Below, in pieces: positions 2,249-60,872 of a stretch of DNA of 64,000 nucleotides (the first letter of the stretch is position 1; each line of letters starts with the position of its first letter). The notes beneath the pieces were generated by a model, which saw only the letters and a list, made by a program, of their open reading frames with translations, did no database searches and was not told the origin of the DNA. The DNA comes from Marsupella aquatica. Taxonomy: Eukaryota; Plantae; Marchantiophyta. The stretch is from assembly GCA_973895155.1 (NCBI GenBank), contig OZ316899.1:5707241-5771240 (forward strand). Reading direction: 5' to 3'. The translations under genes were made by a program, and so were the position numbers.

Positions 2249-5200
2249 TGTGGTGCGTCCCATGGCCCTCTAAACCCAAGAACCCCCCCCCTTAACAAGC
2301 CGATTCTAACTGTCTTTGGCTTGCCGAGGTTGGTTCTGCGGTTTATCAACATGGGATGCTGCTAACTTCTTACCCACATATACTGGACAAATCTTTTCAT
2401 TGGATCATGAGGTATGTCACTGGCCTAGTCCATGCCTCTTTTGCTCCTCCCTTCATGGTTTTCCTTCAAGTATATTTGGATTCTGCCCCCAGAATGATGC
2501 CCAATTGGCTTGGGTAGCCGCTAAGACCTCTCTCAACTCGACACATCCAACTCCACTACTTATTACCACCTTTCTTACTCCCTTTCTCTCCCTAGTTGGT
2601 GTGGGCAATCTTCACACAAGTTGATGCAACACACAAATATAAAAATAACTCTTATTGACTAAGTTATATTGGCGCAACTTCCATCCAAATAGTACTTCTC
2701 ATACACAAGATCTGCAAACTAAGCCGGAAGGCCAACTCTATTCAGCTCATGAGTGTGAGGAAACATGAATACACGCAAGATTCACTGTATAACTAGTAAC
2801 CGAGAGATTCTTTTACTAGATGATCCCAACCTTGCTAGTGCACTAAAAACTTGTTAAGGAAAAAGCCATGAACTCCTCGCTGCGCATGTATTTATCCTGG
2901 AAGCGCACCTACTATTTCATTACAGCGTAAGTCTAATCTATTCTAGCTATAATCTACCTATGTATAGTGGGGCAAGAGCACAAGTGTTGCTCTTACCAGC
3001 GGATCCGCAATCCCACTAATCTAAGTGTCATGGCCACCCTCTTGGCCCTAATCTTAATCCTAAATCTGGAGGTCCGCACCCGCCTTGCCCACTCATGCCT
3101 CCTTCCTCCACGTCCCCCCTCTCTAAAAGGAATAGGCCTCCACCACCATCATGCCAGCGGTGACTCATCCCTAATGGACGCCCCTTATCCTCCTTCTGTG
3201 GCCAATATTGCAAGTCTGTCCTCTGACACATTATCTGCTCCTGACCGGGTCAACCTATCCTTGGCGTTATCTGGTCCAACCCCACCCTTGGCCTCATCTT
3301 TGGCTTCCGCTGCCGCCCTCGCCTGCATACGTGGTGGTCCCGGCATTGGCTTTGTTAGTACCGGCATCCTCCTCCTTGCCGTAGTTGTCGTCCTCATAGG
3401 CTTGTCCTACAAGGCGGGTTGTCTCCACTTCCCAAGGTTGCGTTTGATGCCTATCAATGATTGGCAACATGAGTCCACTCCTGTTATGTGCGCTCCCAGC
3501 TGGTCCTCTTGGCCGACTTCTAACATTGTCACCTTCACAGCCATGACCTTGCATAAGGCCGGTGCCATGCTCTCTACCTCGGCTACGGTGGCTTGGAGGA
3601 GTGTGTTGACTCCTGACCCGAAAGGTTTTTGCTTCTTCTTGTCCTTCCCTTCCAAGGTAGCCAACATCTTCCCCTTGCCCATTACTTCTGGCAAGGGTAA
3701 GGGTACCTTGGCTGGTCTTTTGGTCAGTACCACACCTAGCAACCTTGTCGTGGCCACTGGGGGTTTACTTGGTGTAGTCGGGCGCTTCCTTTCTTTCACT
3801 AGTTTCTTTAGCTGCTCCGTTTGATTGTCCACCCACCGCTGCAAGTTCTCCACCTTTTGCACGGTGTCCTCCAACTCCTCTTGAGTCTCGTCCAACTCCC
3901 TTGGGTGTCCTCCAACTCCTTTTGCAAGGCCACCCTCTCCTCCTGGGCTTCCTTTAGCTCCTTGTTGAGCTCGTGGACAACATCAAACTTCCATCTTATT
4001 CATCTTTTTGTATGTTTGATTGAGCGTGTCGTCCTTCCTCCGCAGGTTGGCTTGAAGATTGGCCGACAGGGTTGCGAGCTCCTCCTTCAGCTGAGCAATG
4101 CCCCCATAGGTCTTATCAAACTTGGCATTCTTTTGGTGATAGGCCTCACAAAGATCATCAATTTGATCAAGCTCTCCCTTCAGTGCCTTCTTTGCCCTCT
4201 GGGTATCCGCCATGGCTTTATTGTAGATTGCAATGTTGGCTTGCTTGGCTCCCTTCAACTCCTGTATCCTTTGTTCTTGGCCTTTGCTTTTCCTTGAGCG
4301 CTTTGACCAACTTCCCTTGGGTCTGGGCAAGTTTACTCTTGATTAACTGGTTATCAGCCTTGGCTATATCCAATTGCCCCTGCACGATGCTCAGCTCATG
4401 GTTTCTAACCCGCAGCTCATCTTGAGCCTACTTGGCTCCCCTTAGGTCTCCTGCTTTGGCTTCCTTCTTTCTAAGTTGTCGGATGATTTCTTCCTTCTTC
4501 ATCCTCTCCAAAGCCACAGCTTCCTCCAAACGGCTTTTATCTGACACCCCCTTTGGACAAACGGCCCCATCTCCAACTCTTTCCCAAAGATGCCCAGGGC
4601 AAGTGATACCGGCATCTCCCATTGCGACCTTTGTTCCCATGCCTCCTGTCTAACCTCTTCAAAAGTGGTCATTGGACTAGCTTGCCTTTTTGCAAGCCAT
4701 CGGATGTCTTCTGGCCACCCTCCCCCCAGTAAGTCCTTCTCCTGGTTTAGGGTTGCTTCCGCCAGATCTTTGAGTCGCTCCTGCAGCTCTTGTGCGGCCT
4801 GTTTCATCCCATCACATTTGGGAGGAGGGACGCCTGGTGGGGGAGACTCACGGCTCCTTTGCTGCTGTGGGTCCCCACAAACCACTCCTAGAAGTGTAGG
4901 AATGAACTGGCCAAGGCTCCTGACCCCGGGTATTGGCCAATCCTCTTAATAGCCAAAGTTTTCATCCTTGTAGTCCTCCACGCCTACCCTTTCGGCTTAG
5001 AGTTTGGGGTCCTCCTGGTCTTCTTCTTGACTGGCCGTAAATGCGGCCTCCTGCTGGAAAGAGTGACTGTAGGGTGCTAGCTTTGGCTTCAGCTCCCATA
5101 CTTACTTCTCCCTTTCTTCATTGGGAGTGGGAATCCCAGGCTCTCGTTCCTTGAGTGCCGGCCTCAAGCCCCCCAACTACATCTGCACTCCCTGTTCATG

Positions 5201-7032
5201 CTTTGGCCTCCTTCTTTCCATGGCCCCGACAAAGAGATCTGCCCTTGTTGGTCTTCTAGGGCCTGCCTCTTTAACAGTGCCCTGTACCGGCACTTGTACT
5301 GCAACTGCTGGCTTCTCTTTCTACAGCATGTGCATAATGTTTTGCATGGCTGGTTGTTGTCTCGACATGGGTGTTGGCCATGACATGAAGATCTGATTGA
5401 TAGCCAGGGCTGCTGAGCGGTTTGGTCTCCCTTGCTGCCGGCCTCTCTTCTGACTCCTCGTCTGGTGCCCCTTGTCTGCAAGGGAAGTATCAGTGCAAAG
5501 GTCTGACTCCGGGCGTATTGGCACAACAATGGCATGTGATACCCAAGCAGGGACACGCTCCCCTGGCCTATCACTTGTTGTTCCTCCTTCAAGATCTTCT
5601 TCAGTTGGGTGAGGAGGTACCCGTTGTAATCCTGGCTTGGGTCTGGTCTTTGTACAAGGTAGACCTATGTTTTGCCAATCTCCAGTCTTGCCAAATTGCA
5701 ATGCATGGTAACCCGCAGGAAATCAATAATTTCTCCTATGTGCGGGGTGGTATAGGTGTTCCGGAAGAAGCCATTCCTTGTTGATGGCCTCGGGAACAAT
5801 TTGTACTCCTTATACGACAAGTTCTTCCGGGAGTCCACCTTGGTCTTATTGCCTGTTGGCAAGCCAAATACCTTGGCAATCACCTTGGGAGTGAGATAGA
5901 ATACCCTCCCGTACACCTTGCTCATGTCTAAATCGTGATCCCATGAATTCCAACAAGTCTGAATTTGGCACCTCCGGCTTCAGCCAAGGTAATCTAATGA
6001 AGGTCTTCAAGCCGGATCCAACCATGAAGCCTTGGTACTTTCGGGAGTGCATGGCCATAAAACATGCATCCTTGTCTTGTGCAAAATATAACTGCACTTC
6101 CTTGAGCCGGACCATCGCCCAACCCTTCCATGTGTCCTCCCTTATGGGGATGGCATTGACTAGATTGACCTCCGGTCCTCCTTCCTCCTCCTGCCTCTTT
6201 CTTCCTTGCTCAACAGGCTTTCTAGGTGCCGCAAACCTAGCTAGTTCTTTTTGTCGGGGTGGCTTCTTCATTGATGGGTACCTTCCTCTTCATAGCGGGT
6301 GCTCCCAACAACTCCCCCAACATTGTTACTTTTGTCCACGCTGTCGTGCTACCCTTTAGGTCCCAATGTTTGTCGTTGCAATGGTTGATGGCCTCACGGA
6401 TGCAGATAATTTTGTTCTTACGGAATAGTAGGTCATCAAACTGGTTGGCAGAAGGCGTCCATAAGAACTCATCCTTGACAAGCTCTCCCCCCAGGAAAGT
6501 AGACCTCTATAGCTCCCACGGCCTAGCAAGCTCGTGTCTTTCTTGGGCTGCTCCCTCCGGCCCCTTGTCTTTGTAGGTTCCAATGTGCTCAGTTTCCCGT
6601 GCAAACAGACATCCCCAAAAATGTGCAACTTGGTTGATGTTGCTCATTCCCGCTTTGTGTTGATGCTCGGTATCTGCTTCTGCCCCAAGTGCTTGCCTAA
6701 GCAGTTGACAATTTGTTGGCTTTTCTCTGTAATCCTCTATTGATTGGTGCTTGCAAATGAGTCATCGCTCTTGGTGAATAGTCCTTACCCCCCTCATGCC
6801 TGCCTTCGCCTGACTGCCCATTGATTGCCCACTGCCAATAGTGCTTAGCGTGCCCTGACTCTAATTTGCCTTCTGGTTGTCATTAGCCCTTACTTTCAGC
6901 CTCGGCTCGGGTTCCATGGTTACACTCAATTGTTTAAGTTTTCCCTTTCCTCCTTATACTAATGCGATTTTAGTGCACACCACCCATGTTTACCTTTTTA
7001 AATGGCCTAGTGATTCTTGGCTAGGCATCACA
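2249..7032 (-). mobile_element. ORF-bearing TG...CA element, family A copy 1 (4784 bp, giant solo-LTR-like)
   Basis: Starts TGTGGTGC and ends GCATCACA (8-bp imperfect inverted ends). Perfect 5-bp TSD GGGCC at 2244-2248 and 7033-7037. Collinear with 22149-26778. No gag/RT/IN, PBS or PPT inside. Confidence 0.88.
3149..6647 (-). pseudogene. Family A element gene (ancestral ~1100 aa; transposon-accessory domain plus coiled coil), heavily frameshifted
   Basis: Fragments 5846-6271, 5665-5925, 5164-5592, 4499-4885, 3983-4330 and 3407-3895 are collinear with the better-preserved copy at 23060-26400. Confidence 0.75.
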
Positions 7033-7183
7033 GGGCCACATGCCCATTAACCGTCTATTGGACCCTATGCACATCAAGGGAAATGTTGGGAGGTCATTGC
7101 TCCGACATCTATGGAAGGGTATTTTTGTTGGATTTCTTTAAATGCAGTTTATTCTAGAATTTTTGCAACTTTTTAAATTAAAG

Positions 7184-7480
7184 GCGACGCTTTATAAAGT
7201 GTCCACTCTAATTGCGATGCTTTAAGAAGCATCCACTAAAGTACCAACCCTATAAGACGTGTGTTCCAAAGGAGTGACTAAAATAATGACGCTTTTAGAA
7301 GCATCCATAACCCAAAGTCAAGAAGATAGAAATAACATTTTCAGAAGTGTTCACCAAGTATCAACACTATGCAAAGCGTCCTCTATTCCAAAGGCAAAAC
7401 CCACGTACTGACGCTTTTAAATTAAAGCATTTGCTCAATCACTGACGCTTTCAAAATTGTCCACTAAATCTCCAACGCTT
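7184..7480. repeat. Clustered GACGCTTT / AAAGC(G/A)TC motifs in both orientations; probable CACTA subterminal repeats
   Basis: About seven copies (gacgctttataaagtgtcc, gatgctttaagaagcatcc, gacgcttttagaagcatcc, caaagcgtc, ctgacgcttt twice), upstream of CACTA transposase remnants. Confidence 0.55.
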
Positions 7481-8081
7481 CCAGTGATGTCCATTTTCAA
7501 CTTTGTTTTTCCACTTTTCAAGGATGATCATTTTTAGTTGTTTGAGGTCTGAAAAGGCATGTCTTTTTAGTCTTTCCTTTGTGGTAGAATTCTAAGACCT
7601 ATATATAAGACTTTAGGTTGTTGCTTTGGAAAAGGGGGAAGAACCAATGTTTAGATTTTCTCCTTCCATTGTAACAAGATATTGAAGAATGTTTTGTATG
7701 GAAGTAAAGCAACATATGTTTTGAGTTGTGTAAGTATTCAGGAGATTCTTTCCGGTGACTGAATTTGAATCACAAACTTGTGAGATTCTTTCCGGTGACT
7801 TCACTGCTAGGCTTACTTGCTATGATGAGATTCACTGGCCAATTTGAGATTGATGTGTAATATAGAAGGAGCAAAATTCCATGTTTAGAGTATCTGAATA
7901 TCGTTGTTTTACTTTGGCATATGTATTAGAGTTTGATTTTGAGTTGTAAATCGCTGAAATTCAAACCATGTTGATAACATTTTAATATGTATCTTAGTAG
8001 AAACAACCATAAATGTACTTTGGGTTTGGTGAGCAAAGAATTGTTCTACCTCAAATCTTTATGGTACTAAAAGAAGAGTAG

Positions 8082-9380
8082 ATGAGCCATGATAGTTTTA
8101 ATCTATGGTCCTTGGGTGATGACTCTTGGAGGAATATTGTAGACCAGCTGGCTCGACTGTGGGGTCTTATTGTCATGGGACGTCAACAATGCTTACTTCT
8201 TACTGACACCATTCACAGATCTTGTATTGGCGGACGAGAGACTGAACTCTCTGCCAGGCTGTGGAGATGGAGTGATTGTGAGAAGTATTTGAAAGGTTTT
8301 GGTATTGCTAACTCTCGGGTGTATGAAATGCTTTTCCCTAAAGGCTCTGATCACATTTGCCTTAAACCACACCTGCCCCTTATAAAGGGCTATGGGTAAC
8401 CCATAGCTCTCATTCTAAAGAGTACAAGTTCAGAAATGTGTTTTGAGCTCCACAAAAGGTGTTGACTGCAAAACCTTTTTTTGACAAGTACTCCACAAAA
8501 GGTGCTAGGTTTCCACCTTTTATGGTGAGTAGTGAGACATGGAATGAGGCTTTTATAGTGGCAGGTGTGGTTCAATAGAATCTGGGGTGTCAATCTCTCT
8601 GATGAGACCTGGAACATGACTTGGAGAACTCTATGGTCTTCTGACCTTCTCGGGCTAAGGTTTTCCTTTGGCGGATCCTTGCTCAGGGACTTTTCTTTGG
8701 CTCTAGAGCCTTAAAGATAAAGAAATCTGACGGTACATGTCTTCTCTGCCCCAATACTATTGAGTCTATCCCACATATCTTTTTCCTTTGCTGATACACC
8801 TGCGATGCTGGACCAAGACATGGAGCTGGATGCATGGGGTGCTCTTTGGAGGATTTCAGACTTTGCTGTATATCATCCTCTCCTTTTGCCGGCGGCTACC
8901 CTTACTTTCATGGATGTTTATTACTTACCAGGTTCTTTGGCACATCTGGCTAGCGCGGAATGCGCAAACTTTTGATCATTCATGTGTTAGATCCTTTGAC
9001 CAGGTGGGTGTGACTACAGAGACCTTGGATCATCTTGCCGCTATGGCTGCCACACATTCATCCACTATGGACTGCAAACATTGTCGTCCAATCGGTGCTA
9101 GGACTCTTTTAGTTATTGAGGGCTCTAGACTTATGAGCTTAGGGATTAGACATATTATCTCTTGAGCTAGGTCACTTTGCCTGCCCGATGCACTTTTGTC
9201 CTATTAGCTCTTGACCTCCGGTGAGCATGATTTTCTCCTATGGTTCCACTTATTGCATCTTGCAGATAGGCTGAAATCTAATGTTTTGATGTTCTTCCCC
9301 TTAGGGTCTTTTGCCTTTGGGCCTGCTTGTTCCCCCATCTGTGGGGTTCACGCGGAATAAACATATTTTAAATAAAAACA
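8082..9380 (+). mobile_element. Degenerate L1-clade LINE 3' fragment (zf-RVT region, 3' UTR, A-rich tail)
   Basis: Translates to KVFLWRILAQGLFFGSRALKI..GTCLLCPNTIESIPHIFFLC and VLWHIWLARN..F. Ends ...ctgtggggttcacgcggaataaacatattttaaataaaaa. Confidence 0.8.
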
Positions 9381-9669
9381 ATCTTTGTATACACTAAGAC
9401 AATATTCATTTCTAAAGGAGTGAAAATATCAAACTAAAACAAAATAGATCTCAGTCCAAACTCCTTTTTATCCATGATTCAAGAGTCTTCTTTTCCTTGT
9501 GTTTTTGTTAATTTAACCCTTTTGTGAAGTTTGAGAAATATAGAGTAAGAGGCTCTAAATCACTCAAATCTGTTAATTCATTCAATCTATTCCCATTTGT
9601 TCTTTAAGGGACATAATTCCAAGTTTATAAATAGACAAATGTTACTTTCTGTTCTTACGGCTTTATGAC

Positions 9670-9917
9670 AACATCTACATGGGGAGAAAAATAGCAACTG
9701 GAGAGAGAGTTGTGAGGAGATGGGGATGCATGGACTTCATGGTTTTTTACCCTCTAGGATGATCCTAATCATCCCCTTACTATCCATCCCCCATGGGTTA
9801 GGGTCAATGCGGTTTCCTGCAGGGTACGGTGCCAATCCACAATGCATTTTGTGGAGATGACTCTCCAAAATGGCCAGCTTTCTTGAAGACCCATGATTAT
9901 TGGATTGGGCAGCGAGG
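9670..9917 (+). pseudogene. CACTA/En-Spm transposase fragment 1 (interrupted by the copia element)
   Basis: MRFPAGYGAN...KWPAFLKTHDY resembles the CACTA FPxGYxxN...LKSHD motif. The reading continues after the copia right LTR. Confidence 0.65.
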
Positions 9918-10260
9918 TGTTGAGCATAGACGACACTCGTAACGGTAAGCACATGACACATCCAATGCGCAAGTAGTCAACACAAGAGATATGTGGTTCA
10001 CCTCCTTGAGGCTACGTCCACGGGAACACACAAGAGAGCTTTACTGAACTCTAAGCCTGTCGGCCTTACCAAGTCTCTACAGTGTAAGCTCTCCTCATCT
10101 CTCAAGTGGCTCCGTAACAATGAGCCTAAGTTTCACTTATCCAAGCAAACACCGCTTGGCATATAGTGTGCATCCTAGTTAACCTAACCACGTCTCCGAC
10201 TATGGTTAGCCTAACTACGGTTACATATCGTAACCCTAGACCTTGAGTAAATACCTAACA
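9918..10260 (-). repeat. Copia 3' LTR
   Basis: Direct repeat of 19216-19558 with 12 mismatches by eye, all transitions. Adjacent PPT at 10261-10270. Confidence 0.97.
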
Positions 10261-10452
10261 ATCTCCCCCTTGACTCTGGTCTAGGGGAGGGTAATACTGC
10301 TAACCTATATGATTATTCAGCGGGAAGTTCTGGATGAAAACCAACATGGTTTCCCCTCTCTAACTAGAGCAAACCAGAACTAAACCGTAGCCTATTACTA
10401 GGAGTGAAGAAGAGCATATCTCAATAATTACAACAAATGTTAAGAAAAACCC

Positions 10453-13400: not shown

Positions 13401-14588
13401 GACTTGAAGTTCACCATCAATTACTCGCCATTGATGACCATTTGTATCCAACACACCGAGTGAAATCAATTTTTTTCGCATGCCAGGTACAAACCTGACT
13501 CCGGAACTGTGCGCACAATGCCATCAAACATTTGAATCTTTACAGACCCAATATCCTCAACTCGACAGGAGTGATCATTTCCCATCAAAACTGAACCGTT
13601 TGACATAGAATAAAAATTGAAATACTCACGAATGTAACAAATATGAAAGGAGCAAGCACAATCAAGAATCCACACATCATTTGCTCTCCTAGATGATGTG
13701 CATAGGGCATACTCCTGACTTCATAAAACATACTCATCATTGAGTAAATCAACTTCTCCATCAGCACTAGTCACATTGGCTGATGAAGATTCAGCTGCCT
13801 TACCCTTACAATCCCTCTTAACGTGACCAACCTTGTGACACTTCCAGCAGACTACTGGCTTTCTCTCCTGGGACTTCCCCCTGGAAGCAAATCTTGTCCT
13901 AGATTTACTTCGTCCCTTGCCATTCGTGCGCTGCTTGGGACGCCGCTGTGACCTCCCACGATTCATATTCAAGGCAGCACCAGATGACGATGCTGCCTGG
14001 TGCATCATCTGACAGCAAAGAGCTTATCACCTCATTGTATGAAATAGACTTCAGGTCTCTATACAAGAGAACCTGCTTCAAACCCTGATAAGATGGGGGT
14101 AAGGAGCTGAGAAGAAGCAAGGCCTTGTCCTCTTCTTCAACGCCCTTACCGAGATTAGACAAATTAACTGCTAGGCTGTCAAATTCATCCAAGTGATCCT
14201 GGAGCTTGTTCCCCTCTTTGAGCCGAAGGCTTATTAAGAGAGACTTCTTGTACAATCGATCTGATGCATCCTCCCGATAGTACTTCTTCCTTAGGGCTTT
14301 GAATAGAGATGCACAATCCGCGTAGTCATCTAACTTCTTGATGATATGCGGCTTCAGATAAAGCATCACCGCATTCACTGCAATTACTTGTTCCTGCCTC
14401 CACCTCTTTAGTGGGATCTCCTCCTCATCATCGTACATCTCTCGTGTAGAGAGAAGATGATCTAGGCCCATAGCGTGAAGAACTCCTTTCACTTGCTTCT
14501 CCCACAGCAAGTAGTCCGTACGCCCATCATACTTTTCCACCTCAAACTTGACACCTCCAAACCTAGATGCCATCTGTTTTTCCTTCAC
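10453..14588 (-). pseudogene. Copia gag-pol polyprotein with several frameshifts and stops
   Basis: KFEVEKYDG (gag), CWKCHKVGHVKRDC zinc knuckle, WILDCACSFH protease, LWHSRLGH GAG-pre-integrase, HSDVWGP/SDNGREY/QNGVAER integrase, KARWVAKG and LYVDDM RT, CDSQSA/KHIDVRYHF RNase H. Confidence 0.95.
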
Positions 14589-18402: not shown

Positions 18403-18439
<37 letters not shown>

Positions 18440-19213: not shown

Positions 19214-19215
19214 AT

Positions 19216-22148: not shown

Positions 22149-25100
22149 TGTGGTGCGTCCCCTGCCTCCCCAAACCCAAGAAACCCCCTTGCTCAAGCCG
22201 ATTCCCGCAGGTTTCGTCCTTGGCGAGGCTGTTTCTGCGGCTTAGTGGCATGGGACGCTGCTAATTCTCCTTCAACTACTTCTATTAACATTTTACACAC
22301 ATATATTGGACAAATTCTTCATCGGGTCATGAGATACTTAGCCGGCCTATTCTAGTCCCTCCCTTGTATTCCTTTCCTGGTCTTCCATTAGGTATGTTTG
22401 GATTCCACCGCCGGAATGATCCCCAATTGGCTTGGTTAAGCCGCTAAGACCTCTCTCAGCTTGACACATCCAACTCTCACTCCCCTGCTTACTTCTATTC
22501 CTCTATTAGTTGATGTGGGCACTCTTCACACAAGTTAATGCGACACACAAATAGCAAAATGACTCCTTCTGACTGAGTTATACCATGCACTTGCCATACA
22601 AACAGTACATCTCATACACAAGCTCTGCGAACTAAGCCGTGAGGCCAACTCTATTCAGTTCTTAAGTATGAGGAAACATGAATATACACAAGGGTCACTG
22701 TATAACTAACCGAGAGCTTCTCTTACTACTTGATCCCAGCCCTGCTGGTGCAACTAGAAACTTGCTAAAGAAGAGGCCCTGAACTCCCCGCAGCCCAGGT
22801 ACTTATCCCGGTTGTGGATCCGCCTAATTCCTTGCAGCGTAAGCCTAATCTACCTACTGTAATCTACCTAACTGTACAGCGAGGCAGGAGCACAAGTGTC
22901 GTCCACACTCGTGGATCCGAAATCCCACTAATCTAAGTGTCAGGGCCGTCTCCTGATCCTGATCCTAAGTCTAAACTTGGAGATCAGCGCCCGCCCTGCC
23001 CACTCACGCCTCCTACCTCCACGTCCGCCCTCCCTAAAAGGGACGGCGCCCTTACACCGTCACAACACCGGTGGCTGGTCCTCAATGGATGCCCCCAACG
23101 CTTCCTCCGCAGCCACTGCCGTTGGTCCGTCCTCTGACAGATTACCTGCCCCTGACCGAGTCAACTCTTTAGCGGCCTGACTGGGTCCCCCCTCGGCTTC
23201 GGCCTCAGCATCGGTCACGGCCTCCGCTACGGCTACGGCCTCCCTGGCATGTTCTAGTGGAGGATCCGGTACCTCGGCAGCATTACTAGTTCTCTCGGCC
23301 TTGGCCTTGCCATCTCCACTTCCTAGGACTGGTGGATCCACCGCCGTGCCGATGCTGGAGGTTGGTGCCGGGTTTATCTTCTCGGTCACAACGGCTTGAG
23401 AAGCCGTATAACTCCCACACCTAGAAGGTTTCCACTTCTTCTTCTTCCCTATTTCCACAGCCGGTTCCTTCCCCTTGCCACTTACCTCCGGCACCGGGGT
23501 GAGTGTTTCGGCTTGTCCTGCGGCCAATACTACCCCTGGTAACTAGGTTCCCCCAATTGGAGTTGGACCTGATGAAGCCAAGCATTTAAATACTGCGGCT
23601 TGTGTCTTCAGCCGCTCTGTTTGGTTGTCGGCCCGCCGCTGTAGGTTCTCCATCTTCCTCGTGATTTTCTCCAACTCCTCCTGGGTCTCGTCTAGGTCCT
23701 TGCGCGCCTCCTTTAGCTCCTTATTGGCTTCCTCCAATTCTTTCTTTAAGGTAGCCCTCTCCTCCTGGGTTGCTCTTAGCTCCTTGTCGAGCTCCGCTAC
23801 GACCACAGACTCCATCTTATTCATCTTGGCATAAGTCTGGTCGAGCTGGTCATCCTTTTCACGCAGGTCGGCCTTGAAGCTGGCCGTCAGGGACGCAAGC
23901 TCCTGCTGCAGCGCAATAATCCCTTGATAGGATTTCCCTAACTCTGCTTCCTTCTGCTCAAGGGCTCCGCGGATATCTTCGAGCTCTCCTTTCAATGCCC
24001 TCTCCCTTCTCTGAGTCTCCGCCATGGTCCGGTTGTTGGCGGTTAAATGGGCCTCCTCTGCGTCCTTTAGCGCCCACTTCCATTTCTCTCTTTCTTTGAC
24101 TGTGCCGGCCAACTCTCCTTGGGTCCGAGTCAGTTTATCTTTGATAATCTGATTGTCAGACTGAGCGGTATCCAACTGCCCCTGCATGATGTTTAGCTCA
24201 TGCCGCTTAATCCGCAACTCATCTTGGGCTTTCTTGGCCGCCTTCAGGTCTTCCACCTCGGCTTCCATCTCCCTAAGCCGCCGGATGACCTTGTCCTTCT
24301 TGCTTCTCTCCAAAGCCACCGCTTCTTCTAATCGGTGCTTTTCCAACATCCCCCTCTGGAAAAAGGGTCCCTGCTCCAACTCCTCCCCAAAGATGCTGAG
24401 CGCTAGGTCCCCACACATCTCCCCGTACTCCATGGCTCTATCCTTAGCATAGGTGGAGTAACTAGAAGTCATCTGCATCAACCACCGTGGCCTCTGCTCC
24501 CAAGCCGTCTTGCGGATTTCTTCTACGGTGGCAAGAGGGTTGCTTCTTTTTTCGGCAAGCCGCCTGATGTCCTCCGGCCAATCTCTTCCTGGTAAATCCT
24601 TCTCCCTAGCCAGGGCTGCTCTCTCTTCCTCCCTAAGTCGCTCCTGAAATTCTTGTGCCGTCTGCTTTATGCCGTCAAAGCTCGGGGGAGCAACCTCTGG
24701 TGGGGGAGACTCGGGGTTACTCTACTGGGTGGGGTCCCCTCGAACTACTCTTGGAAGCGTGGGGATAAATTGGCCACAGGTCCTTACTCCTAGAACATGA
24801 TGATCCGACCCATAGCCGGAGTTATCATTGCTGTAGTCCTCCACCGCCTCCTCCACTACTTGGACTCCCGGCTCCTCTGCCTCTGATTCGGGGCTTGAGG
24901 CTCCCACGTACATTCGCACTCCCAGCTTGTGTTCCTGCCTCAATCTCTCCTTGGTTCTGGTAAAGGGGTCTTCCCTTCTGAGTCGGCTTAGGCCAACTTT
25001 TGGGGCAGCGTCCTGTATCGGTGCCATTGCCGTTGCCGTTGTCGGAACCGTTCTCTTTTCCTTCTCCAGCAATTTCAGCAGATTTTGCATGTCTGGCTGC

Positions 25101-26778
25101 TGCATTGGCAAGTCTTCTTTCCTTGGCCTAAACACCTGCTCGATCGTCGGACTGTCGGGCTATTTGGGCTTCTCTGGTGCCGGCCTCTGCTCCGGGACCT
25201 CCTCCGGTGCCCTTGCCGATAGGGGAAGTACTGGGGCAAAGATTTGACTTCTGGCATACCGGCACAACAGCGGCATGTGATAGCCAAGCCGGGACACGCT
25301 TCCCACGCCGATCACCTGCTGTTCCTCCTTCAAGATCTTCTTCAGTTGGTTGAGGAGGTACCCTTTGTAATCCCGGCTTGGGTCTGGCCTTTCTGCCAGG
25401 TAGACCTGAGCCTTGCCGATCTTTGCCCTCGGCAAGTTACAATGCATGGTCACCCGCAAGAAATCGATCATCTCTCTGATGTGCGGGTTGGTGCAGGTGT
25501 TCCGGAAGAAGCCATTCTTCGTTGATGGTCCTGGGAACGACCGAAACTCCTTGTCAGGTAAGGTCTTCCTGGTATCAACCTTGGTCTTATTACCCATCGG
25601 CAAGCCAAACACCTCGGCAATCACCCGGGGAGTGAGATAGAAATCCTTCCCATACACCCTCGTGGAATTGGTCTCGGGTTCCCATGATCCCACAAATTCT
25701 AATAAGTCTGAGTCCGGCACCTCCGGCTTCAGCCATGGTAATCTTACGAAGGCTTCCAAGCCGGATCCGGCCATGAAGCCTTGGTACTTCTTGGTCTACA
25801 TGGCCATAAAGCATGCATCCTCCTCCCATGCAAAGTGTAATTGCACTTCCTCCGGTAGGGTCGCCGCCCAGCCTTTCCAGGTGTCATCGTTTGTTGGAAT
25901 GGCATTGATGGGATCGACCTCTTCCTCGTCGGCTTCTCCTCTTGTCCTGCTCTGCTGCTCTGCTGCTCTGCTGGCTTCCTAGGTGCCGCCGACCTCGTTC
26001 TTTTTGCCGGGGTGGCCTCTTCGTTGTTGTTTCCTTTCCTCTTCATCTCGGCTGCCGTGGATGTTTCTCCTAGCAAGGTTGCCTTCGTCCACCCCTCCGT
26101 GTTACCCTTCAACTCCCAGTGTAGGTCGTTGCAGCGATTGATGGCTTCCCGGATGCCGACGATTCTGTTTTTGCAAAATAGAAGGTCGTCGAGCTGATTG
26201 GCAGTAGGAGTCCACAAGAACTTGGCCTTGATAAGTTCTCCTCCTAAGAAAGCCGTCTTCTGCAGTTCCCATAGCTGAGCGAGCTCCTGCCGTTCTCGAG
26301 CTGCTCTCTCTGATTCTTCGTCCTTGTAAGTCCTGACGTACTCACCTGCCCGTTCAAACAGGCATCCCCAAAAACGTGCCGCTTGATTGACGTTGCTCAT
26401 ACCCTCCTTGAGTCAATCGTTGGTATCTATTCCCACCCCGAGCGCTTGCCTAAGCAACTGACAGCATTTGGCCTCCCGTAGTCGTCTGCCCAGTTCGTTC
26501 TTGCAAATGAGCCACTATTCCTCGCGAGCGGTCCTTACCCCTCTCCTCTTCTGGTCTTCCCTCCCGTTGGTCACCCCTAGCCACCGACGCTTAGCGCGCC
26601 CTAACCCTAATCATGTTCTCTCCCCCGACATCCTTACTTCCGGCCTCGGCCCGGGTTCCATAGTCACCCTTAATTGTTTATATTTTCCTTCTTTTTGTTC
26701 CTATACTAAGGCGTTTCCAGGGTACACTCCTGCTTTACCATGTAAACCGGGCTTAGTGATTCCTGGCTAGGCATCACA
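22149..26778 (-). mobile_element. ORF-bearing TG...CA element, family A copy 2 (4630 bp)
   Basis: TGTGGTGC...GCATCACA termini, TSD GGTAG / GGCAG (one transition), collinear with 2249-7032, no gag/pol. Confidence 0.88.
23060..26400 (-). pseudogene. Family A element gene, near intact (~1110 aa): N-terminal helical region, conserved domain, long coiled coil, acidic tail
   Basis: ATG at 26400. One frameshift near 25950 and three in-frame TAG stops (25160, 24722, 23543) join ORFs 25744-26400, 25160-25774, 24722-25135, 23543-24481 and 23060-23527. Confidence 0.82.
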
Positions 26779-31189: not shown

Positions 31190-32853
31190 TACTTACCAAT
31201 GGGGTTGGTTGCTTGTGCAAACAGTAAAGGCCATTGAGCAACGATCTTGCTGAGGAGCAAGTGCGGCTTTGTATGGGAGTTGCCATTGATGGTGATGGAG
31301 GCACCAAGTTGCTTGCATGTGGAGTTTGGTGGAGACGTTTGGGCATCAAGGGTACTTAGGCAAGAGTACCAGGTTTAGTGAGGGCGCTCGGTGGCTATGT
31401 CCACCACTATCAGGTTAAAGAAACAACAATTTGTTCCCAACTTGTTTGATTTAAGGCCTGTTTTAAGGCCTTGTGTCTCCCCCAAATGTCTTAGAGTAGG
31501 AAATTGTTGGTTCCTCTCTTGGTCACTGGAATGATGTGATGCGGCCCCAACTGAGTCCTCATTGGTGTCCTCATTATTATCATCCACGGCCTTTACAATG
31601 GTGAGTAACTCTCAAGATAAGTAATCTCATAAGTTATCAGTCATCTTCATCAATCAACTTGATATAAGTTGCCATGTCATCTCAGAGGTCACCAAGTTGT
31701 TGCATCCCAAAAAATTGGAAAATTCTGATTTTTTATATCAAGCTATGGATGTCCATACTGTACGGACACACTATCTCAGCAAGGTCAGCCAAGATGGCCA
31801 GGTGTTCATACGATACAAATATGGGCTTTTGCCCCAGCCCCCAATTCCCCCCAAAACATCCAAAATTTTCTTGGAGTTTTTCCCCCATTTTTTTGTCTGT
31901 ATGCCTATCTTGGCAAGGTCAGCCAAGATTGAGTCAATCTTAGTTGCCCAGCTAAGCAAAGACCCCATCTCAGTCACTCAGCTGAGATTCAAAAAATATG
32001 AGGGCTAAAAGAGTGGTAACTGATATAAGTCATTGATAAATGATATCAGCAATTTATAACTGATGAGATAGTCAACCCCGGAACTCCTAGGTAAGAACTA
32101 GTGTCGTGCTCTTTCTTGGGACACCCCACTTTTGTTGGAGCTACAACACCATCCAACTCTCTTCCAACGTCTTTAAGCCATTCCTCTTGCTGCATAGATT
32201 TGATTCCTTGCATATCAAAAAAGAATCCCCAAATGGATGGTAAATTCTGATTTGACCCTTGCAGAAATATTCCAATGATAGTCATTAAGTTGCTTCAATA
32301 ATTTGTTGTATAGGAAACTAGAGTAACCCCTTGCAAGGTTGAATGTCTATTGTGAGCCAACTACCATTGGTTCTTGCTTACCTCTGGTCTACTACCTGTC
32401 ATTCACAAGGTGACACGCAAGAACTTCAGCACCTTCAACCAACCACAATCTGGGTGACCTTCCTTTTTGAATCTCAACTTCTAAGAAATTCAATCAAATC
32501 ATACTCTCCAACATCCTCCTGCAACCAAGGTAGTTGGAAAAAATATTTGGGCTAAATCCCGTCAACAGTAAGATACTTGGTTTCTAGACAATATAGAATT
32601 TTGCACAAATAAGTTGGCACATTTTCAAATGCCTTTTTAGCCAATAGTGATAACTAACATAATAATAGCTACTCACTAATATACATATGTTAGTGTTTAC
32701 GCAAAAAGAGTCATTTGTGTCAACAATAAGAAATTCAATTACTACTTATTCATTTGAAGCTAAACATCTAAGTGTTTAAACAAAGTGCAATAGGAATGGT
32801 TTGAGACTACTTGAATCAATAGTCACTCATGTAAACCTACACATGTCAATGTT

Positions 32854-35571: not shown

Positions 35572-35599
35572 AGATGCATCCAGGGTACAAGATTGTACT

Positions 35600-48194: not shown

Positions 48195-49228
48195 AGTTGC
48201 GGAACTTGACTACCTTAACACTTAGCTCCGGCGTTGCTGACTCCAACGCCGAGCTCCCCTATGGTCCAGGCCCAAAAAGGCCATCCAAGGAGGACTTAGC
48301 ACGGGGAGACTTGTGGGCAATGGGGCGTGACACTAAAAAGGTAAGGCGCTGAGCTGGTGGCACACACTAAGAACTTAGACTAGCCAAGGGCTGGTTGGGT
48401 CAAGGGGAAAGGGCCAGGCTCAAGGTCAACCATCCGGACCCCCGGACGGACATTGATTTTTGAGGGCTTGAGTGAGAGCTCCTCTTGGGCCCAAGGCCAA
48501 TGGAGTTGACTTCATGGGCAACAGACGCTTGGGGCACGAGTTATGGCCCGATCCGGGTTTGGCCAATTGGGGGTCCCAGGAGACAATAAAATCTGAGGGC
48601 CTAGACATGAGCACTAGGTTAGCCTGATCACAACGGGCTAAGGCACTCTGCTTGCGGACGCTTAACTAGAAAGTTATGGACATTGCCAATTGGTGGCGCG
48701 CCCAGACATGCGGGTTGGGGTTCAGGTTGGGGCCAAAATTTGGGGACCAAGGTTGGTCCGGGGGTGGCAGATCTCCAGAAGAATATATGAGAGGAGTGGT
48801 GTCTCCCTGGGGGCTAAGGGCGAGCTGAAGTCGTGGGCCGCGGCGATCGCAACACTAAGAGAAAACGTCAAACGGAAACGGCGATAACTTCCCAATGGGA
48901 AGTCCGTTGGAGGACTTCTCAGGTGCGTTGGAAATCTCTCAAGGAGGGCTACATCCTCCTAATCTCAGCTGGGTCTACAGGTGCCATAGGTTCTTGAGGT
49001 TTGCGGGGGCTATCTCACCCTCTAGTCAAATCCTGTCGAAACAGCAGCCAAGTCGCGTTTAGTCTCTCAATTAAGGGAGCTTGCATTGGGGAGGCAAGGC
49101 GAAGTAGGCGTGGAGGTTGACTTCCAAGGGCACTTGGCCCCTAGACCAAAAGAGGGGTGAGAACCGGGAGTTGGTTGCTAGAGTTAGGGTCATTATGGTC
49201 CCGACGTGTTGGGACAAGCTTGGGACAA
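48195..49228 (+). repeat. LTR of the AG...CT chromovirus, interrupted by an inverted copy of its own family
   Basis: Starts AGTTGCGGAACTTGACTACC and stops at GGGACAA, where the minus-strand LTR begins. Confidence 0.85.
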
Positions 49229-55200: not shown

Positions 55201-55719
55201 GTAGTAAGTTATGAACTTTTGGATATCACCCCTAAAGCTCATCTCCGTTACACATTTCTGGGCGTGCCGCTCTGGGTACTTAGTGGTGACATGAGCACGG
55301 AGACCCTCAACCAGGTTTTCCCAAGTTAATGGCAAGGAGGACTCCTCTCGTGACTTCTTCCAAGACTTGTACCACGTCAAGGCATAGTCCTTCAAGTAAG
55401 GAGCAGCTGTAGTAGCCCAAGTGAATCGCTCAACGCACGCTTGGAGATGAATCTCCATCATGGAGAGCCAACTCAGGAACTTTTGTCCACTTTGCTCATA
55501 GGCCCCATTGTAAGTTGGAGGAGTCGGTAGCAGGTTCACTTGGAACATACTCCGTCCAACTACCATTCCCCCTTGGGACGCGTGAAACTCTGACTACCCA
55601 GACTAAGCAAGTACTTAATCTGGGCCTCCTTGTTGTGTTCCAACTGCTCATAAATGAGTCATTGGTCTTGAGTTAACGGACCCAATCTATTATCAACGGC
55701 TGGGCCCTTGCGGGTTGTG
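49229..55719 (-). mobile_element. Ty3/gypsy chromovirus (3' LTR 49229-50721, PPT, gag-PR-RT-RH-IN-chromodomain); 5' part displaced by a nested insertion
   Basis: CYTCGAMGHQSKDC, VDIGAT protease, VFIDDIL RT, SMDFIVGLP integrase, GPY motif, EVETILDH...YLVKWASY...STWEP chromodomain; PPT AAGCGGGGGTTCA next to the LTR. Confidence 0.93.
51170..55700 (-). pseudogene. Chromovirus gag-pol with class I chromodomain, frameshifted
   Basis: ORF fragments 55099-55566, 54493-55077, 53893-54489, 53210-53749, 52418-52831, 51857-52225 and 51233-51571. Confidence 0.92.
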
Positions 55720-56288
55720 AGTCGCGGAACTCGACTACCTTAACAATTAGCTCCGACATCGTTGACTTCGACGCCAAGCTCCCTTATGGTCCAGGCCCGG
55801 ATAGGCCAACCGGGGAGGACTTAGCATGGGGAGACTTGCGGGCAATGAGACGTGGCACTAGCAAGGCAGGAGCCAAGCTGGGGACACACACTAAGGACTT
55901 GGACTAGCGGATAGCTGGTTGGGTCAAGGGGAAATGGGTTGGGCTCAAGGATGGCCGTCCGGACCTCCGGATGGACTTTGAGTTCTGAGGGCATGAGTGT
56001 GAGCCCCTCTTGGGCCCAAGGCCAATGGAGTTGACACCATGGGCAATGGACGCTTGGGGCGCAAGTTGTGGCCCAATACGGCTTGGTTGCTTGTGCAGAT
56101 AGTGAGGACCGTTGAGTAGCGATCATGTAGGTGAGCAAGTGCGGCTTTGTATGGGAGGGGCCGCTGGTGGTGCAAGGGGCACTAGGGTGTTTGCTCAAGG
56201 TATTTTGTGGAGGCATTCAGGCACCAGGGGCACTTAGGCGTGAGTGTTGGGATTGGTGAGGGCGCTGGGTGGCGGGGTCCACCACTTG

Positions 56289-56299
56289 TGGTATCAGAG
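56289..56299 (+). promoter_or_regulatory. Primer-binding site (tRNA-Met) of the chromovirus
   Basis: TGGTATCAGAG, 2 nt after the LTR end ACCACT. Confidence 0.9.
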
Positions 56300-56920
56300 T
56301 GATTTTTGGCATAGACACCGGGCCGGGGTTGGGCTAAGTCGGAATCCAAAAATCTTAACGGATTTCTGCGGGGACTTAGTGCTTCAACGTGCCCGGTGGG
56401 TCGACTGCGGGCAGATTTGGTCGCTGGGAACACGGCTAAAACCACTTGATCAAAGAGTGGCAAATAGGCTCCCCCCACCAAGGGGAGAGCCCAAGTTCAA
56501 GATGAACAGAAGGAGGACGGGTCGACTTCCCTAGACAAACGTTACAAGCAGGATGAAGAAGACGCAACGGCCAAACCATTGACCGCTGCAGCAAACATGT
56601 CAAGTGCAGAGCACTGTCGACTTAAAGGGAAGGAGGTGGCCGATCCTTTGGAGGATGGGTTGGACGATGACGACTCCGACACAGAAGGAAGCGACGACGA
56701 GGCTGAAGCTGAAATGGAGGAAGAGGGTCAGGACCCAAAAGAGGAACTGATCCCAACCTTGAGAGGGTTGAACGCGGAACCAGAGGATGATGTCAAGCCG
56801 GACGTCATTGTAAGTAGTGGGTATTTCCAAAATCATGAAGAAACTGAAAATTTTTAATTTTTTTATGGGGTTTAACCTCTAATTGTTGATAACAGAACGG
56901 AGATAGCATTCTGTCTACAA

Positions 56921-57056
56921 GTTACGGTTCCCAAGTTTAAAGTAAGTTTACGAGTAAACTCCAGTTACTAGTTACGAGTTACTAGTTACGGGGTTGCGAC
57001 AGTATACTAGTTACGAGTATACTAGTTACGACTTACTAGTTAGGGCTTTACGAGTT
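56921..57056 (+). repeat. Heptamer array GTTAC(G/T)A upstream of the family C ORF
   Basis: gttacta gttacga gttacta gttacgg ... actagttacga. Confidence 0.85.
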
Positions 57057-57232
57057 GGCGACCGATGATCGCGACGTCTTACGGCTACTTCCAACGGGAC
57101 TTAGCAACGGGATGGCGAACGCGAATTGAAGAAAAGGCAAATTAGACTTCGGGCGCTCACTCCTAACTTAATTCCTGCCACCTCTGTTGATTCTACCAGC
57201 TTCCCCACTCCTTAGTGCACTCAACATATCGA

Positions 57233-59647
57233 ATGAGAGCTATGGCAAACCTCGGCATTGATGAACAGTACCGAGTTGACACTCTGGCAATTCCTAAGAG
57301 CATAGTCGCCCAAATTCCACCAGCGCCCGATAGCTATGCAAATTTACGGACTTCCTTACAGCAGCTAGGTTTGCAGCATCTACTTGCCGTTCCTTGGGAA
57401 GTAGAGCTCGACACATATTTGCAGGATTTTGTAAAGGGGTCAGTGCTTGCTCCTAAATTTTGACAGACTATTCGAGCTCGACCCAGCTTATGGACTGTGG
57501 AACAAATTGCTTATGCCTTCCGCTGCCCTTCAGAAGGAGAAGGATTGTATTCGAAGAAGAAAGATTTATCTACACCTTACTTCTCTGGGACTCGCAATCT
57601 CACCAATGGCTGGAATTTAACACAGTGTATTTATCCAGATTTGAGAGTGCTTCTGGAATTTCTAGTACCCATTCTACACCCAAAGAAGCCAACCATCTGT
57701 CCAGTGGCTTTGGTGAATACAATTGTAGCCGCACACAGTGGATCTGTCCAGGTGAATTGGGCCCTACTAATTTTCAATGTGATGAAGGATCAGGTGAGGA
57801 CCATGAAGGCAAGTAGACCCACTCGTCTGCAGATTTATTTGTCTCAACTCTATCATGCTTATGATTGTTTATATCCAGAGGAGAAAACGGAAAGAGGGCT
57901 GCTCCTGATTGAGTTAGGCATTGAAGAAGACCTAAGTATGGAAGAACCAGTGGATGCTGTTCCCCTAGATTCTCATGATCAGAATGTGGATGCTGAGATG
58001 GAATTAGATAGGACACCCGCTCATAACTTAGAGCTGGTTCGACACCCTCTGCATAACGTGGTGTATTCACCAAGAGTTAATATGAGAGATCAACCTGGAG
58101 CTGGAGAAGACAGAGATTCTCCTGAGCAATTAGCCGACGTTGCTGAACTGGCTCTTGCAACTGTCAACCTAAGGACCAACTCCTCCACTCCTTCGAAGGC
58201 AGAGTCGAATCAGCAGCTTATTGATAAGTTGACATCTCTCCTCAGTTGCAGTAATGATGGACTATATGACGCTGTTAATAATTTGAGAATGGAGGCTGTC
58301 AGTTTGAGATCACCATTTCATGATCAGCTAAGTCCTGTCAGAATGACCTCTCCCCCAAGAGAACCAGCACCAATGGAATTTGTGATCTGTACTCCTGTCA
58401 CTGTACACCCCCCTCCCCTAGAAACAAGTGAGCCTATTCCAGTAACAGATGGTATCAGCTGTGTGGCCATTGTGGATGACTTGTTAGAACTACTACAGTG
58501 TGAACCTCGACAGATGGCATCTGTGGTCCGCAACTTGATCCAACAATGTCCAACTGCTAGTCCTACTCCTAGCCCAGGTTCGCAACCTTACAGCCCTGAT
58601 TCCAACTACGAACCCACAGAAGGACCCACCTACAATCGGTCACAATATGAGCACCCTTTTGACAGAAAAGATCTACCTGAAGACTCTGATCCACCCTCAG
58701 ATGGTGAAACTTATAGATCTTATGATAATTCTCTTGAGTCATCCCCAAGGCAGGGATTTGAAGATGTTGATACTGCCTTAAGATCCAATCCAGACTTAGT
58801 AGCAGTTGTCACTTCATCTACTCAAACACCTCGGAATGCTACTATCAAAAGCAGGTACCCTAGACATCCTGAGTCAAAAGTGCACAAGTATGCCACCACT
58901 TGCAAAATAATGCAGGCCAACAGACCACCGGTTGGAGAGTTCTGGAGATACTACTATCTAAAGAAGACTGAGGCAAGCTACATCTTCGATCTTAGGTGTC
59001 TTGGTACTTCTAGAGTGGAAATGGCACAATTTGATGAGTTCTGGATTGACTCAATATACTTTCGGCCTATTCTTGCTATGATGCTACTCCAAGGTGATGT
59101 AGAGGTAGAGGATTCAGACTTAGTTCTGGCATACTTTGGAAACTTTGCAGCCTATGCCTTGGATTTCGTGGTTTCCTTCCTGATGCAGAGCAAGAAGTCT
59201 ACTACTCTACAACACGATTACATACCACAAGGACCTAAGGTTACCCTTGTTTCAACCAGTACATTGGCTGAGAAATAGAGGATCTGGAATAATGTCACTT
59301 CTCAGACTCTAGCTGAATTCAACCGATACTTCAGAGATGTCAGATGGAGACTTCGACCCTTCTATTCCAGGATGATGAGTAGTGATGAGTTCCTGTACCA
59401 TTATCCCCAAGTATATGCTGCTACCTGCAACAACTATGATGTGATCGGGATGTACAAAGAAGCTCTTCGTATAGATTCATGTTATTTGATGAAGAAAATG
59501 CCTTTGATGTATCCTGAGAGACAACTGAGGTGCCTACCATACTCCAGAGGATCCCCACGCCAAGCTGAACTGATGGAGGTTACTCAGAACCGAATTGTTA
59601 CCCTTGTGGAATTGCTGGAACCCGACGACATCCGACAGCAAGCTTGA
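57233..59647 (+). pseudogene. Family C element gene (ancestral 804 aa; two in-frame stops, no frameshift)
   Basis: ORFs 57215-57463, 57497-59278 and 59372-59647 share one frame. Contains GLQHLLAVPW, IAYAFRCP and NGWNLTQCIYPDLRVLLEFLVPILHPKKP. Confidence 0.85.
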
Positions 59648-59837
59648 AGAAGTCTTTTAGTTAGTTTTTAGAGTAGTGCATCTTATCTGATTTTTAGAAA
59701 TGTGTTCTAGAGCTTTAAAAGTTGTCATACTTATTTAGCATGTAGTCTGTACCTAGGAAAACCTCTTGGCAAAATCTCAGAGTTTTCTGACTTATAGGAA
59801 GTTAAAAATAGTTGAAATTGCCAAGTCATTACTTTTG

Positions 59838-59948
59838 TCACGATTACGAGTTACGACTTAGCTTTTACTAGTTTAAGAGTTACTAGTTTCCGATTACGAG
59901 TTTCGATAGACAGCCGATTACGAGTTAATAGTTTACTAGTTACGAGTT
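59838..59948 (+). repeat. Second GTTAC(G/T)A-type array downstream of the family C ORF
   Basis: attacga gttacga ... gttacta ... attacga ... actagttacgagtt. Confidence 0.8.
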
Positions 59949-60872
59949 CATACTTAGCCATTTTTCCGGCTTTTCACTTACTGAATCGCCATTTTAAAAT
60001 TTTGAGGGGTATGAAGAGGCATGTCTCTTCGACCCTGTGACCTCTCACTCAGTAGATTTTTACTATAAGACCCCTCTACCACTAGTGTAGATGATGGTAA
60101 AGTTAAGCAATTTTTGCCTTTCCTTGGTGTTCTGCCAGTTGATCATGAATGTTAAGAGTTCGAGATCAAGCTTGACACCAGGAGAAGACTTTCCTCCTTC
60201 TTGTGGTTTAATCCTTCGAATAAATCATGGGAAGTAAAATCCCAATTGTGTAAATCTTATGAGATCTGATGACAGATTCCTCTTTGGGTGACTCATTACA
60301 ATCTCCTGAGTTCTTGGAGTTAACTCACTGAGTTTAAGTCTTATTTGAAATTGATGGATTTTCTTTCATGTTGCTTAGTACCATCTAAATGTTGAAGTAG
60401 CTATTTTTTAGATCTTATCTGAGTACCATTTAGAAAGAAAGGATAAGACATGTTGACGGCATTTTAAAAGGTACTCTAGTAAGCAATTTAGATCTGAAAA
60501 GCAATATGGATTTGAATCCTTAAGTCTTTTCATTTTGATTTATGTCTAAGGAGTAACCTTGGTCTATTCCAGACTCCCTTAGCATACTTTGAGATATTTT
60601 TCCTTGTGTTTTGTTAATCATTTCCTTTTCATTAATTTATGGTTACATGATGCTGAGTTGTCATTAAAAACCACTCACCGCTGTGGAGCGATCTTCAAAA
60701 TACCTTAGTAAAGTAATCAATCCTGATTACTATGTGTTAAAGAGAGTTCTTAAACTCTCATTTGTGTTTTTTATGTATCAAATCAACCCCATCTTGTTCT
60801 TTACGGGAACGAATACCGAGTTTGAAGACCTTTAAGTGTGTTTTTGGTTCTTCATAGCAAACTACAGTCATA

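What the first reader, a model, noticed from the sequence alone, without database searches (positions are those of the whole stretch)
2249..60866. Three diverged families of giant gene-carrying solo-LTR-like elements share one conserved protein domain
Seen in sequence: 2249-7032, 22149-26778 and 56809-60866 each have TG...CA ends and a 5-bp TSD (GGGCC; GGTAG/GGCAG; GTCAT), the footprint of an LTR-retroelement integrase. They have no internal LTR pair, PBS, PPT or gag/pol. Each carries one long ORF (~800-1100 codons). The partial element at 1-2151 (second terminus at 63921) is a third family. I see no DNA similarity between families, yet the proteins align: A IAEVFGLP...NGFFRNTCTNPHIREMIDFLRVTMHCNLP; B MIFGLP...NGFLMRTCPIPKVAERLESKWYALHMMKP; C IAYAFRCP...NGWNLTQCIYPDLRVLLEFLVPILHPKKP. 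A and C also share GL......PW......L..FV. Inference: these are either solo LTRs of retrotransposons whose 4-5 kb LTR encodes a conserved protein (compare MMTV sag in U3), or a non-autonomous LTR-less class mobilised in trans. The domain loosely recalls Athila/Transposase_32/plant-mobile-domain accessory proteins (unverified). Conservation across families implies selection for a function such as anti-silencing or integration targeting.
Basis: partly seen in the sequence, partly recalled or inferred. Interest (0 to 1): 0.9.

Follow-up and report, generated by a model that had tools for sequence, protein, structure and literature searches.

The report
Giant LTRs encoding VANC-like proteins
Three unrelated-looking families of 4-5 kb mobile DNA in this plant genome each carry a decayed gene for the same protein domain; they are likely the leftover long terminal repeats of retrotransposons, and the domain is predicted to fold like the transposon anti-silencing protein VANC, so each element may encode its own shield against host silencing.

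Summary
The observation largely holds. A1, A2 and C have TG...CA ends and 5-bp target duplications. Empty-site contigs confirm the ends of A1 and C, many different flanks confirm the precise A and B termini, and A1/A2 homology stops at the same ends. The shared domain is real (profile-profile probability 98.8) and was under purifying selection (A1/A2 dN/dS 0.16-0.20). Corrections: all ORFs are broken; 63921 is the same end of a second B copy; a fourth decayed domain copy lies at 32200-32545.

In a related locus (L003) the ORF follows Ty3 RT-RNaseH-integrase and a PPT-like tract plus TG, so it probably sits in the 3' LTR's U3. The window's elements are therefore likely coding solo LTRs, but no LTR pair was seen for A, B or C.

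The parts
2249..7032 (-). Element A1, 4784 nt, TG...CA, TSD GGGCC; inserted in a CACTA-transposase-like frame (family label recalled from the motif)
3170..6917 (-). A1 ORF, broken by stops and frameshifts (3' end approximate); shared domain at about 5470-6046
22149..26778 (-). Element A2, 4630 nt, TG...CA, TSD GGTAG/GGCAG; 68-75% DNA identity to A1; AAGCCG 20 times vs 4.2 expected
23060..26661 (-). A2 ORF, about 1200 codons, starts 118 nt from the terminus: unknown N-terminal domain, shared domain, coiled coil, low-complexity tail; broken
25244..25795 (-). Shared domain in A2 (open frame)
56809..60866 (+). Element C, 4058 nt, TG...CA, TSD GTCAT; nested in the 5' region of a Ty3/gypsy element
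57242..59647 (+). C ORF, about 800 codons, internal stops at 57461 and 59276; shared domain about 57326-57892; second conserved unknown domain at the C terminus
56920..57080 (+). C upstream motif array (TTACG/TTACGAG, all on the + strand), non-coding, partly tandem
59844..59946 (+). C downstream motif array, same motif and orientation, non-coding
60063..60069 (+). TATA-like site 804 nt from C's 3' end, downstream of the ORF; candidate LTR promoter (inferred)
   Evidence: variants in loose ends
1..2151 (+). Element B1, cut by the window start; broken ORF 2-1218 with the shared domain (2-400) and a coiled coil; ends in CA
63921..64000 (-). Element B2: same terminus as B1's right end, inverted, inserted in the RNase H of the Ty3 element
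32200..32545 (-). Decayed fourth copy (D) of the domain, A/B type, in three fragments; element ends not defined
55719..63920 (+). Host Ty3/gypsy element (not part of the finding): LTR fragment 55719-56287, Met-type PBS at 56289, gag 61257-61904, RT/RNase H 62914-63920

Best explanation
A1, A2 and C are precisely inserted 4-5 kb elements that are likely solo LTRs of Ty3/gypsy retrotransposons whose U3 region carries a protein gene, and the shared domain is predicted to be a VANC/PMD-fold DNA-binding module that would protect its own family from silencing. SHOWN: precise multi-copy termini, 5-bp TSDs, one homologous domain in four places, purifying selection, family-specific CpG words in A2 and C. 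INFERRED (about 0.75): full-length elements carry the ORF in both LTRs, between the PPT and the LTR promoter; LTR-LTR recombination leaves one copy with the TSD, and a 4-5 kb LTR would make that frequent. INFERRED (about 0.45): the protein is made from the 3' LTR as part of the element transcript or from its own promoter, oligomerises through its coiled coil (A, B), binds the repeated motif in its own family's DNA and counters methylation or Polycomb silencing, as VANC21 does for VANDAL21; protein and motif diverge together, giving families with no DNA similarity but one domain. The copies in this window are dead.
Confidence: 0.5

Rival explanations
1. Coding solo LTRs as above, but the protein has another job: a transcriptional trans-activator of the LTR, an integration tether, or a decoy for host partners, not an antagonist of silencing.
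For: All structural evidence is shared. The fold suggests DNA binding at most. PMD-fold host proteins MAIN/MAIL1 were first described as promoting silencing (PMC5418596), so the fold does not fix the direction of effect. U3 motif arrays fit an enhancer equally well. The other domains of A and C are unassigned.
Against: The one solved structure matched is an anti-silencing factor; the enriched words contain CpG in a CpG-depleted window (o/e 0.19-0.79 per 2 kb) and differ by family.
Confidence: 0.27
2. A non-autonomous, LTR-less class: single gene-carrying units with TG...CA ends that are copied and integrated in trans by a retroelement's integrase.
For: Three of three complete copies are single units with TSD; both B ends abut host repeats; many different flanks and no dominant internal flank at the A and B termini.
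Against: No PBS, PPT or terminal redundancy inside the units, which reverse transcription needs (established knowledge); a relative sits directly behind pol and a PPT-like tract; solo LTRs show exactly this anatomy.
Confidence: 0.15
3. Internal 3' regions of ordinary Athila-like elements with short, diverged LTRs, or deletion remnants; the ORF is an ordinary internal extra ORF.
For: Transposase_32 and ATHILA ORFs normally lie in the internal region (PMC11728184; PMC6317226); L003 is cut short after the ORF.
Against: No terminal repeat at all (9-10 nt shared words) although A1 and A2 keep 66-79% identity at both ends; precise TG...CA ends with TSD and empty sites.
Confidence: 0.06
4. The protein alignment or the boundaries are chance.
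For: 787 chance TG..CA+TSD pairs; pairwise identity between families only 17-21%; B-C alone not significant.
Against: Empty sites, shuffles, a blind six-frame scan of 858 segments in which each domain's best non-self hits were the other copies, and profile-profile comparison.
Confidence: 0.02

Closest known systems
VANC21 / VANC6 anti-silencing proteins of VANDAL Mutator-like DNA transposons (PDB 9LNK, 9LNJ; PMC5735166)
   Same: Best and only notable fold match over the whole domain; coiled coil in A and B (VANC21 is predicted to oligomerise by one); family-specific short motifs, in C co-oriented and non-coding.
   Different: 10% identity, rmsd 4 A, no sequence match; carried by LTR-type elements, not MULEs; VANC is described as dicot-specific, while the named relatives here are from a liverwort; binding and demethylation untested.
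Extra ORFs of plant Ty3/gypsy elements: Athila Transposase_32 (PF20167) and ATHILA ORF1 (PF03078), Ogre PMD-A (PF10536), Retand TRP28 (PF04195)
   Same: Accessory ORF conserved across copies; helical domain followed by coiled coil or disordered region; 5-bp TSD; Atlas neighbours are PF20167 and PF03078.
   Different: Described between LTR and gag or between pol and the 3' LTR; here the ORF fills most of a unit bounded by TG...CA and TSD. No Pfam hit at threshold.
Phygy clade (moss non-chromovirus Ty3)
   Same: Bryophyte Ty3 with unexplained size: mean 8.6 kb, no extra ORF scored, polyprotein filling the internal part, which implies long LTRs (inference).
   Different: 4-bp NCGN TSD against 5 bp here; whether Phygy LTRs are coding could not be checked (element table too large).
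Retroviral U3-encoded genes: MMTV sag, HIV nef, foamy virus bel (recalled, no call)
   Same: Sense ORF overlapping or inside U3, duplicated with the LTR.
   Different: No homology implied; ORFs here are 2.4-3.6 kb and make up 60-78% of the unit.
Host PMD proteins MAIN/MAIL1/MAIL2
   Same: Reported structural similarity to the VANC domain and action with DNA motifs against Polycomb silencing.

Membership tests
Solo LTR of an LTR retrotransposon | TG...CA ends with short inverted repeat and 4-6 bp TSD | tested here: met
   empty sites
Solo LTR of an LTR retrotransposon | Multi-copy with precise termini and varied flanks | tested here: met
   (A left end 9-24 contigs per run; B right end 8-11 in two runs)
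Solo LTR of an LTR retrotransposon | No internal PBS, PPT, gag or pol | tested here: met
   (short PBS-like 7-mers occur only at internal positions)
Solo LTR of an LTR retrotransposon | Same sequence occurs as a direct pair flanking PBS-gag-pol-PPT | tested here: inconclusive
   No genome held; L003 shows pol-PPT-TG-ORF for a relative only; PBS-like loose end at 60845
Solo LTR of an LTR retrotransposon | U3-R-U5 promoter and polyadenylation signals | tested here: inconclusive
   TATA-like site in C, L001, L002; no clear one in A; no transcript data
VANC (DUF1985) anti-silencing factors | VANC domain fold | tested here: inconclusive
VANC (DUF1985) anti-silencing factors | Sequence match to the family profile | tested here: not met
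   No DUF1985 hit for window proteins, P0001 or 62 homologs; none to the PDB chain
VANC (DUF1985) anti-silencing factors | Encoded by a VANDAL MULE | tested here: not met
   TG...CA, 5-bp TSD, no transposase in the units
VANC (DUF1985) anti-silencing factors | Dense, co-oriented, non-coding target motif arrays in the cognate element | tested here: inconclusive
   Met in C; enriched but not co-oriented in A2; absent in B1; 1 of 11 controls positive
VANC (DUF1985) anti-silencing factors | Binds the motif and causes sequence-specific loss of silencing | not testable with these tools
   needs EMSA/DAP-seq and methylome
Transposase_32 (PF20167) / ATHILA (PF03078) / PMD (PF10536) | Pfam match at the gathering score | tested here: not met
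   best: P0100 PF20167 16.9 bits vs cut-off 45 (1 of 62); Atlas resemblance only
Phygy clade | 4-bp NCGN TSD | tested here: not met
   5-bp TSDs vs table
Ty3 lineage of the parent elements (Athila, Tat, chromovirus) | RT/RH/INT phylogeny, PBS type | not testable with these tools
   No pol linked to A, B or C; L003 pol has no chromodomain hit, no lineage references on hand

The most novel reading that the evidence does not exclude
Bryophyte Ty3/gypsy retrotransposons carry a VANC-type anti-silencing gene inside the LTR together with its target motif arrays. The LTR is then a self-contained protein-plus-target module that coevolves per family, is duplicated at every replication, and stays active in trans as a solo LTR after the element is deleted. 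This would extend sequence-specific anti-silencing from dicot DNA transposons to retrotransposons of non-seed plants and suggest that the PMD/Transposase_32/ATHILA/VANC fold was a transposon counter-defence module before angiosperms.
Probability: 0.33. Interest if true: 0.87.

Novelty: new variant of a known kind. Interest (0 to 1): 0.7.

Why it matters
The function of extra ORFs in plant LTR retrotransposons is an acknowledged open question (PMC7264820, PMC11963269, PMC11728184). This family supplies a testable case: a confident domain model, an intact natural protein (P0001), candidate target motifs (TTACGAG for C, AAGCCG for A) and cross-family negative controls. Protein-coding LTRs were not found described for plants in ten literature searches (open-access library only). 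If they are LTRs, solo-LTR formation, usually seen as neutralising an element, would leave a regulatory gene behind, and such ORFs would be mis-annotated as host genes (three Calypogeia fissa 'unnamed protein products' belong to the family; their genomic context was not seen).

Tried and rejected
No RNA holder was listed; this says nothing on expression. Word-index searches found only P0001 for C's two domains and nothing for A. The single-sequence fold of P0001 was unusable (pLDDT 34). No match in the viral fold library at E<=0.001 or by sequence in the PDB (only coiled-coil or low-complexity noise). C's C-terminal domain: Atlas hits all under 0.9 and inconsistent; one relative, P0050 (E 2.5e-6). 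Locus scans without result: metagenomes with P0001, viral contigs, prokaryote genomes; the A/B-type alignment was too divergent to scan with. No tRNA or Rfam family. Earlier scan findings: none returned. The two comparisons with the window's own C frame used a wrong frame and are disregarded; one search has the right frame. Contig depth spikes at the A terminus were not read as copy number. TSD plus TG..CA alone was rejected as evidence. The VANC21 structure paper is not held. No complex prediction was run: DNA cannot be the partner.
Full report
Setting. The window is a nest of transposon fragments (GC 37-55%, CpG o/e 0.19-0.79): a Copia element with 343-nt LTRs (9918-19558), two Ty3/gypsy elements, and CACTA-like pieces (labels for the latter recalled from motifs). 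No genome is held. The only named relatives of the protein are from the liverwort Calypogeia fissa (3 of 20 representatives looked up), so the host is probably a bryophyte (inference).

Boundaries. The three complete elements have the stated ends and TSDs. That pattern alone is weak: 787 chance pairs exist in the window. Independent checks settle it. A1 and A2 align end to end at 68-75%. Contigs from 4 of 4 public runs join 56803 to 60867, skipping C and one TSD (7, 3, 4, 4 contigs). At A1's left end 16, 9, 22 and 24 contigs leave at exactly 2249 into unlike sequence; at B1's right end 11 and 8 leave at 2151; empty-site contigs exist for both. Removing A1 or C restores a continuous host frame. 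These runs come from two studies and X1/X2 may be the window's source; the empty sites are probably paralogous repeats. There is no terminal direct repeat inside any element and no DNA similarity between families. The stretch at 63921 is the same end as B1's 2151, inverted, and interrupts a Ty3 RNase H exactly at its TG.

ORFs. All window copies are broken. C is about 800 codons with two stops; an intact 808-aa relative (P0001) is 84% identical in the shared domain, 56% in the linker and 77% in a second, unknown C-terminal domain. A is about 1200 codons, starts 116-118 nt from the terminus and leaves about 910 nt after the stop. A1 versus A2 gives dN/dS 0.16, 0.20 and 0.19 for three regions (153, 226, 333 codons; dS is near saturation in two), against 0.72-1.64 in six shifted frames and 0.62-1.10 in the 3' non-coding part.

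Shared domain. A-C and A-B exceed all 2000 shuffles; B-C does not. In a blind six-frame scan each domain's best non-self hits were the other copies, plus an unnoticed decayed copy D at 32200-32545. A three-sequence profile found 200 relatives among 1.84 billion representatives. Of the 149 new ones listed, 123 are C-type and 26 A/B-type; their profiles align with probability 98.8 over 173 columns (partly circular), and the A/B type forms one clade (support 0.999, 103 domains of at least 150 aa). In 40 of 41 long relatives the domain starts within the first 150 residues. Pfam does not recognise it: 1 of 62 relatives scanned has a sub-threshold Transposase_32 hit. The ESM Atlas places it next to Transposase_32 (21 of 30 hits, score 0.90, lead level) and ATHILA.

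Is it in an LTR? A scan with 20 close C-type relatives gave 3 metagenome loci. L003 reads RT-RNase H-integrase (1-2310), then purine tracts followed by TG at 2376 and 2507, a TATA-like site, and the intact sense ORF at 3158-4975. The contig ends 215 nt later. Its sister L002 shows TATA-like, TGTAA and AATACA signals 209-275 nt after the stop with no PPT-like tract plus TG in between. So the ORF most likely lies in U3 of the 3' LTR. C has the same order: ORF, then a TATA-like site 804 nt from the end. L001 and L002 have no pol. This is one locus, 29% identical to C, and nothing comparable was found for A or B. A PBS-like continuation in four contigs leaving C at 60845 is only a lead. I put the coding-solo-LTR reading at about 0.75.

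Comparison with what is known. Extra ORFs with PMD, Transposase_28, ATHILA or Transposase_32 domains are well known in angiosperm Ty3 elements, in the internal region and with unknown function; LTRs up to about 5 kb are known, and Retrosat2 has LTRs over 3.2 kb with a separate ORF0. Gypsy-encoded PMD-A and the idea that TE PMDs act against silencing are in print. It works like a VANC-type system by inference but is not a VANC family member (no profile match, not a MULE). What appears new is the position inside the LTR, the bryophyte family without a Pfam model, and the fold-plus-motif link. Ten searches found no description of protein-coding plant LTRs; the library lacks most subscription journals, including Steinbauerova 2011 and Tanaka 2026, which I did not see.

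What I read. Passages: PMC11963269, PMC11728184, PMC6317226, PMC13547354, PMC5735166, PMC5418596, bioRxiv 2024.09.27.615353. Abstract and outline: PMC3485330. Whole main text: PMC7264820 (parts 1-2 of 3). Supplements: one table of PMC6317226 in full; its element table, which would give LTR lengths for Phygy, was too large, and bioRxiv supplements were not seen. MMTV sag, nef, bel, PPT/TATA/PBS consensus shapes and CACTA motif labels are recalled.

Verdict. Real feature; new variant of a known kind; interest 0.7. Most novel reading (LTR-borne VANC-type anti-silencing module): probability 0.33, interest 0.87.

Noticed in passing
window 32200-33663 (minus): Decayed domain copy D lies downstream, on the same strand, of a decayed PHD-like zf-HC5HC2H finger (33355-33663, E 7e-5) and a weak Pre-SET-like stretch (33083-33430, E 0.02). 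Possibly an element that fused the domain to a chromatin reader, or a captured gene fragment; none of 62 homologs scanned had a PHD hit.
   Followed up: partly
window 7040-9917: LTR-like stretch without the domain: GACGCTT repeated at 7186-7444, a TATA-like site near 7600, U5-like sequence near 9400-9520 and an apparent LINE fragment; two weak TG..CA+TSD candidates (7112-9584, 7129-9595).
   Followed up: partly
window 57108-59548: One contig in run X4 (depth 820, short side 30 nt) skips most of C's ORF: possibly an ORF-deleted, about 1.6-kb variant of the element.
   Followed up: no
window 48194-50725, 55719-56287, 28310-30229, 35137-35574, 46026-46741: A further LTR family of about 1.5 kb belonging to the host Ty3 element, with head-to-head and internally deleted copies; its 3' end before the Met-type PBS at 56289 does not read as a clean CA.
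   Followed up: no
window 56400-61200: The host Ty3 element has an acidic N-terminal extension upstream of gag into which C inserted; the frame is continuous across the empty site.
   Followed up: partly
window 2152-27550: B1, A1, the Copia element and A2 all appear nested in CACTA-like transposase sequence (motif labels recalled).
   Followed up: partly
window 42623-44743 (minus): 706-codon open frame without Pfam match; probably a host exon.
   Followed up: no
L001-L003: High CpG o/e (0.79-1.11) and dense CCGGA-type words, also inside pol of L003; L001 has a candidate TG start at 84 behind a non-PPT flank.
   Followed up: partly
window 25999-26463 (minus) and 58850-59647 (plus): Two further conserved domains without family assignment: A's N-terminal domain (dN/dS 0.16) and C's C-terminal domain (77% to P0001, one distant relative P0050).
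   Followed up: partly
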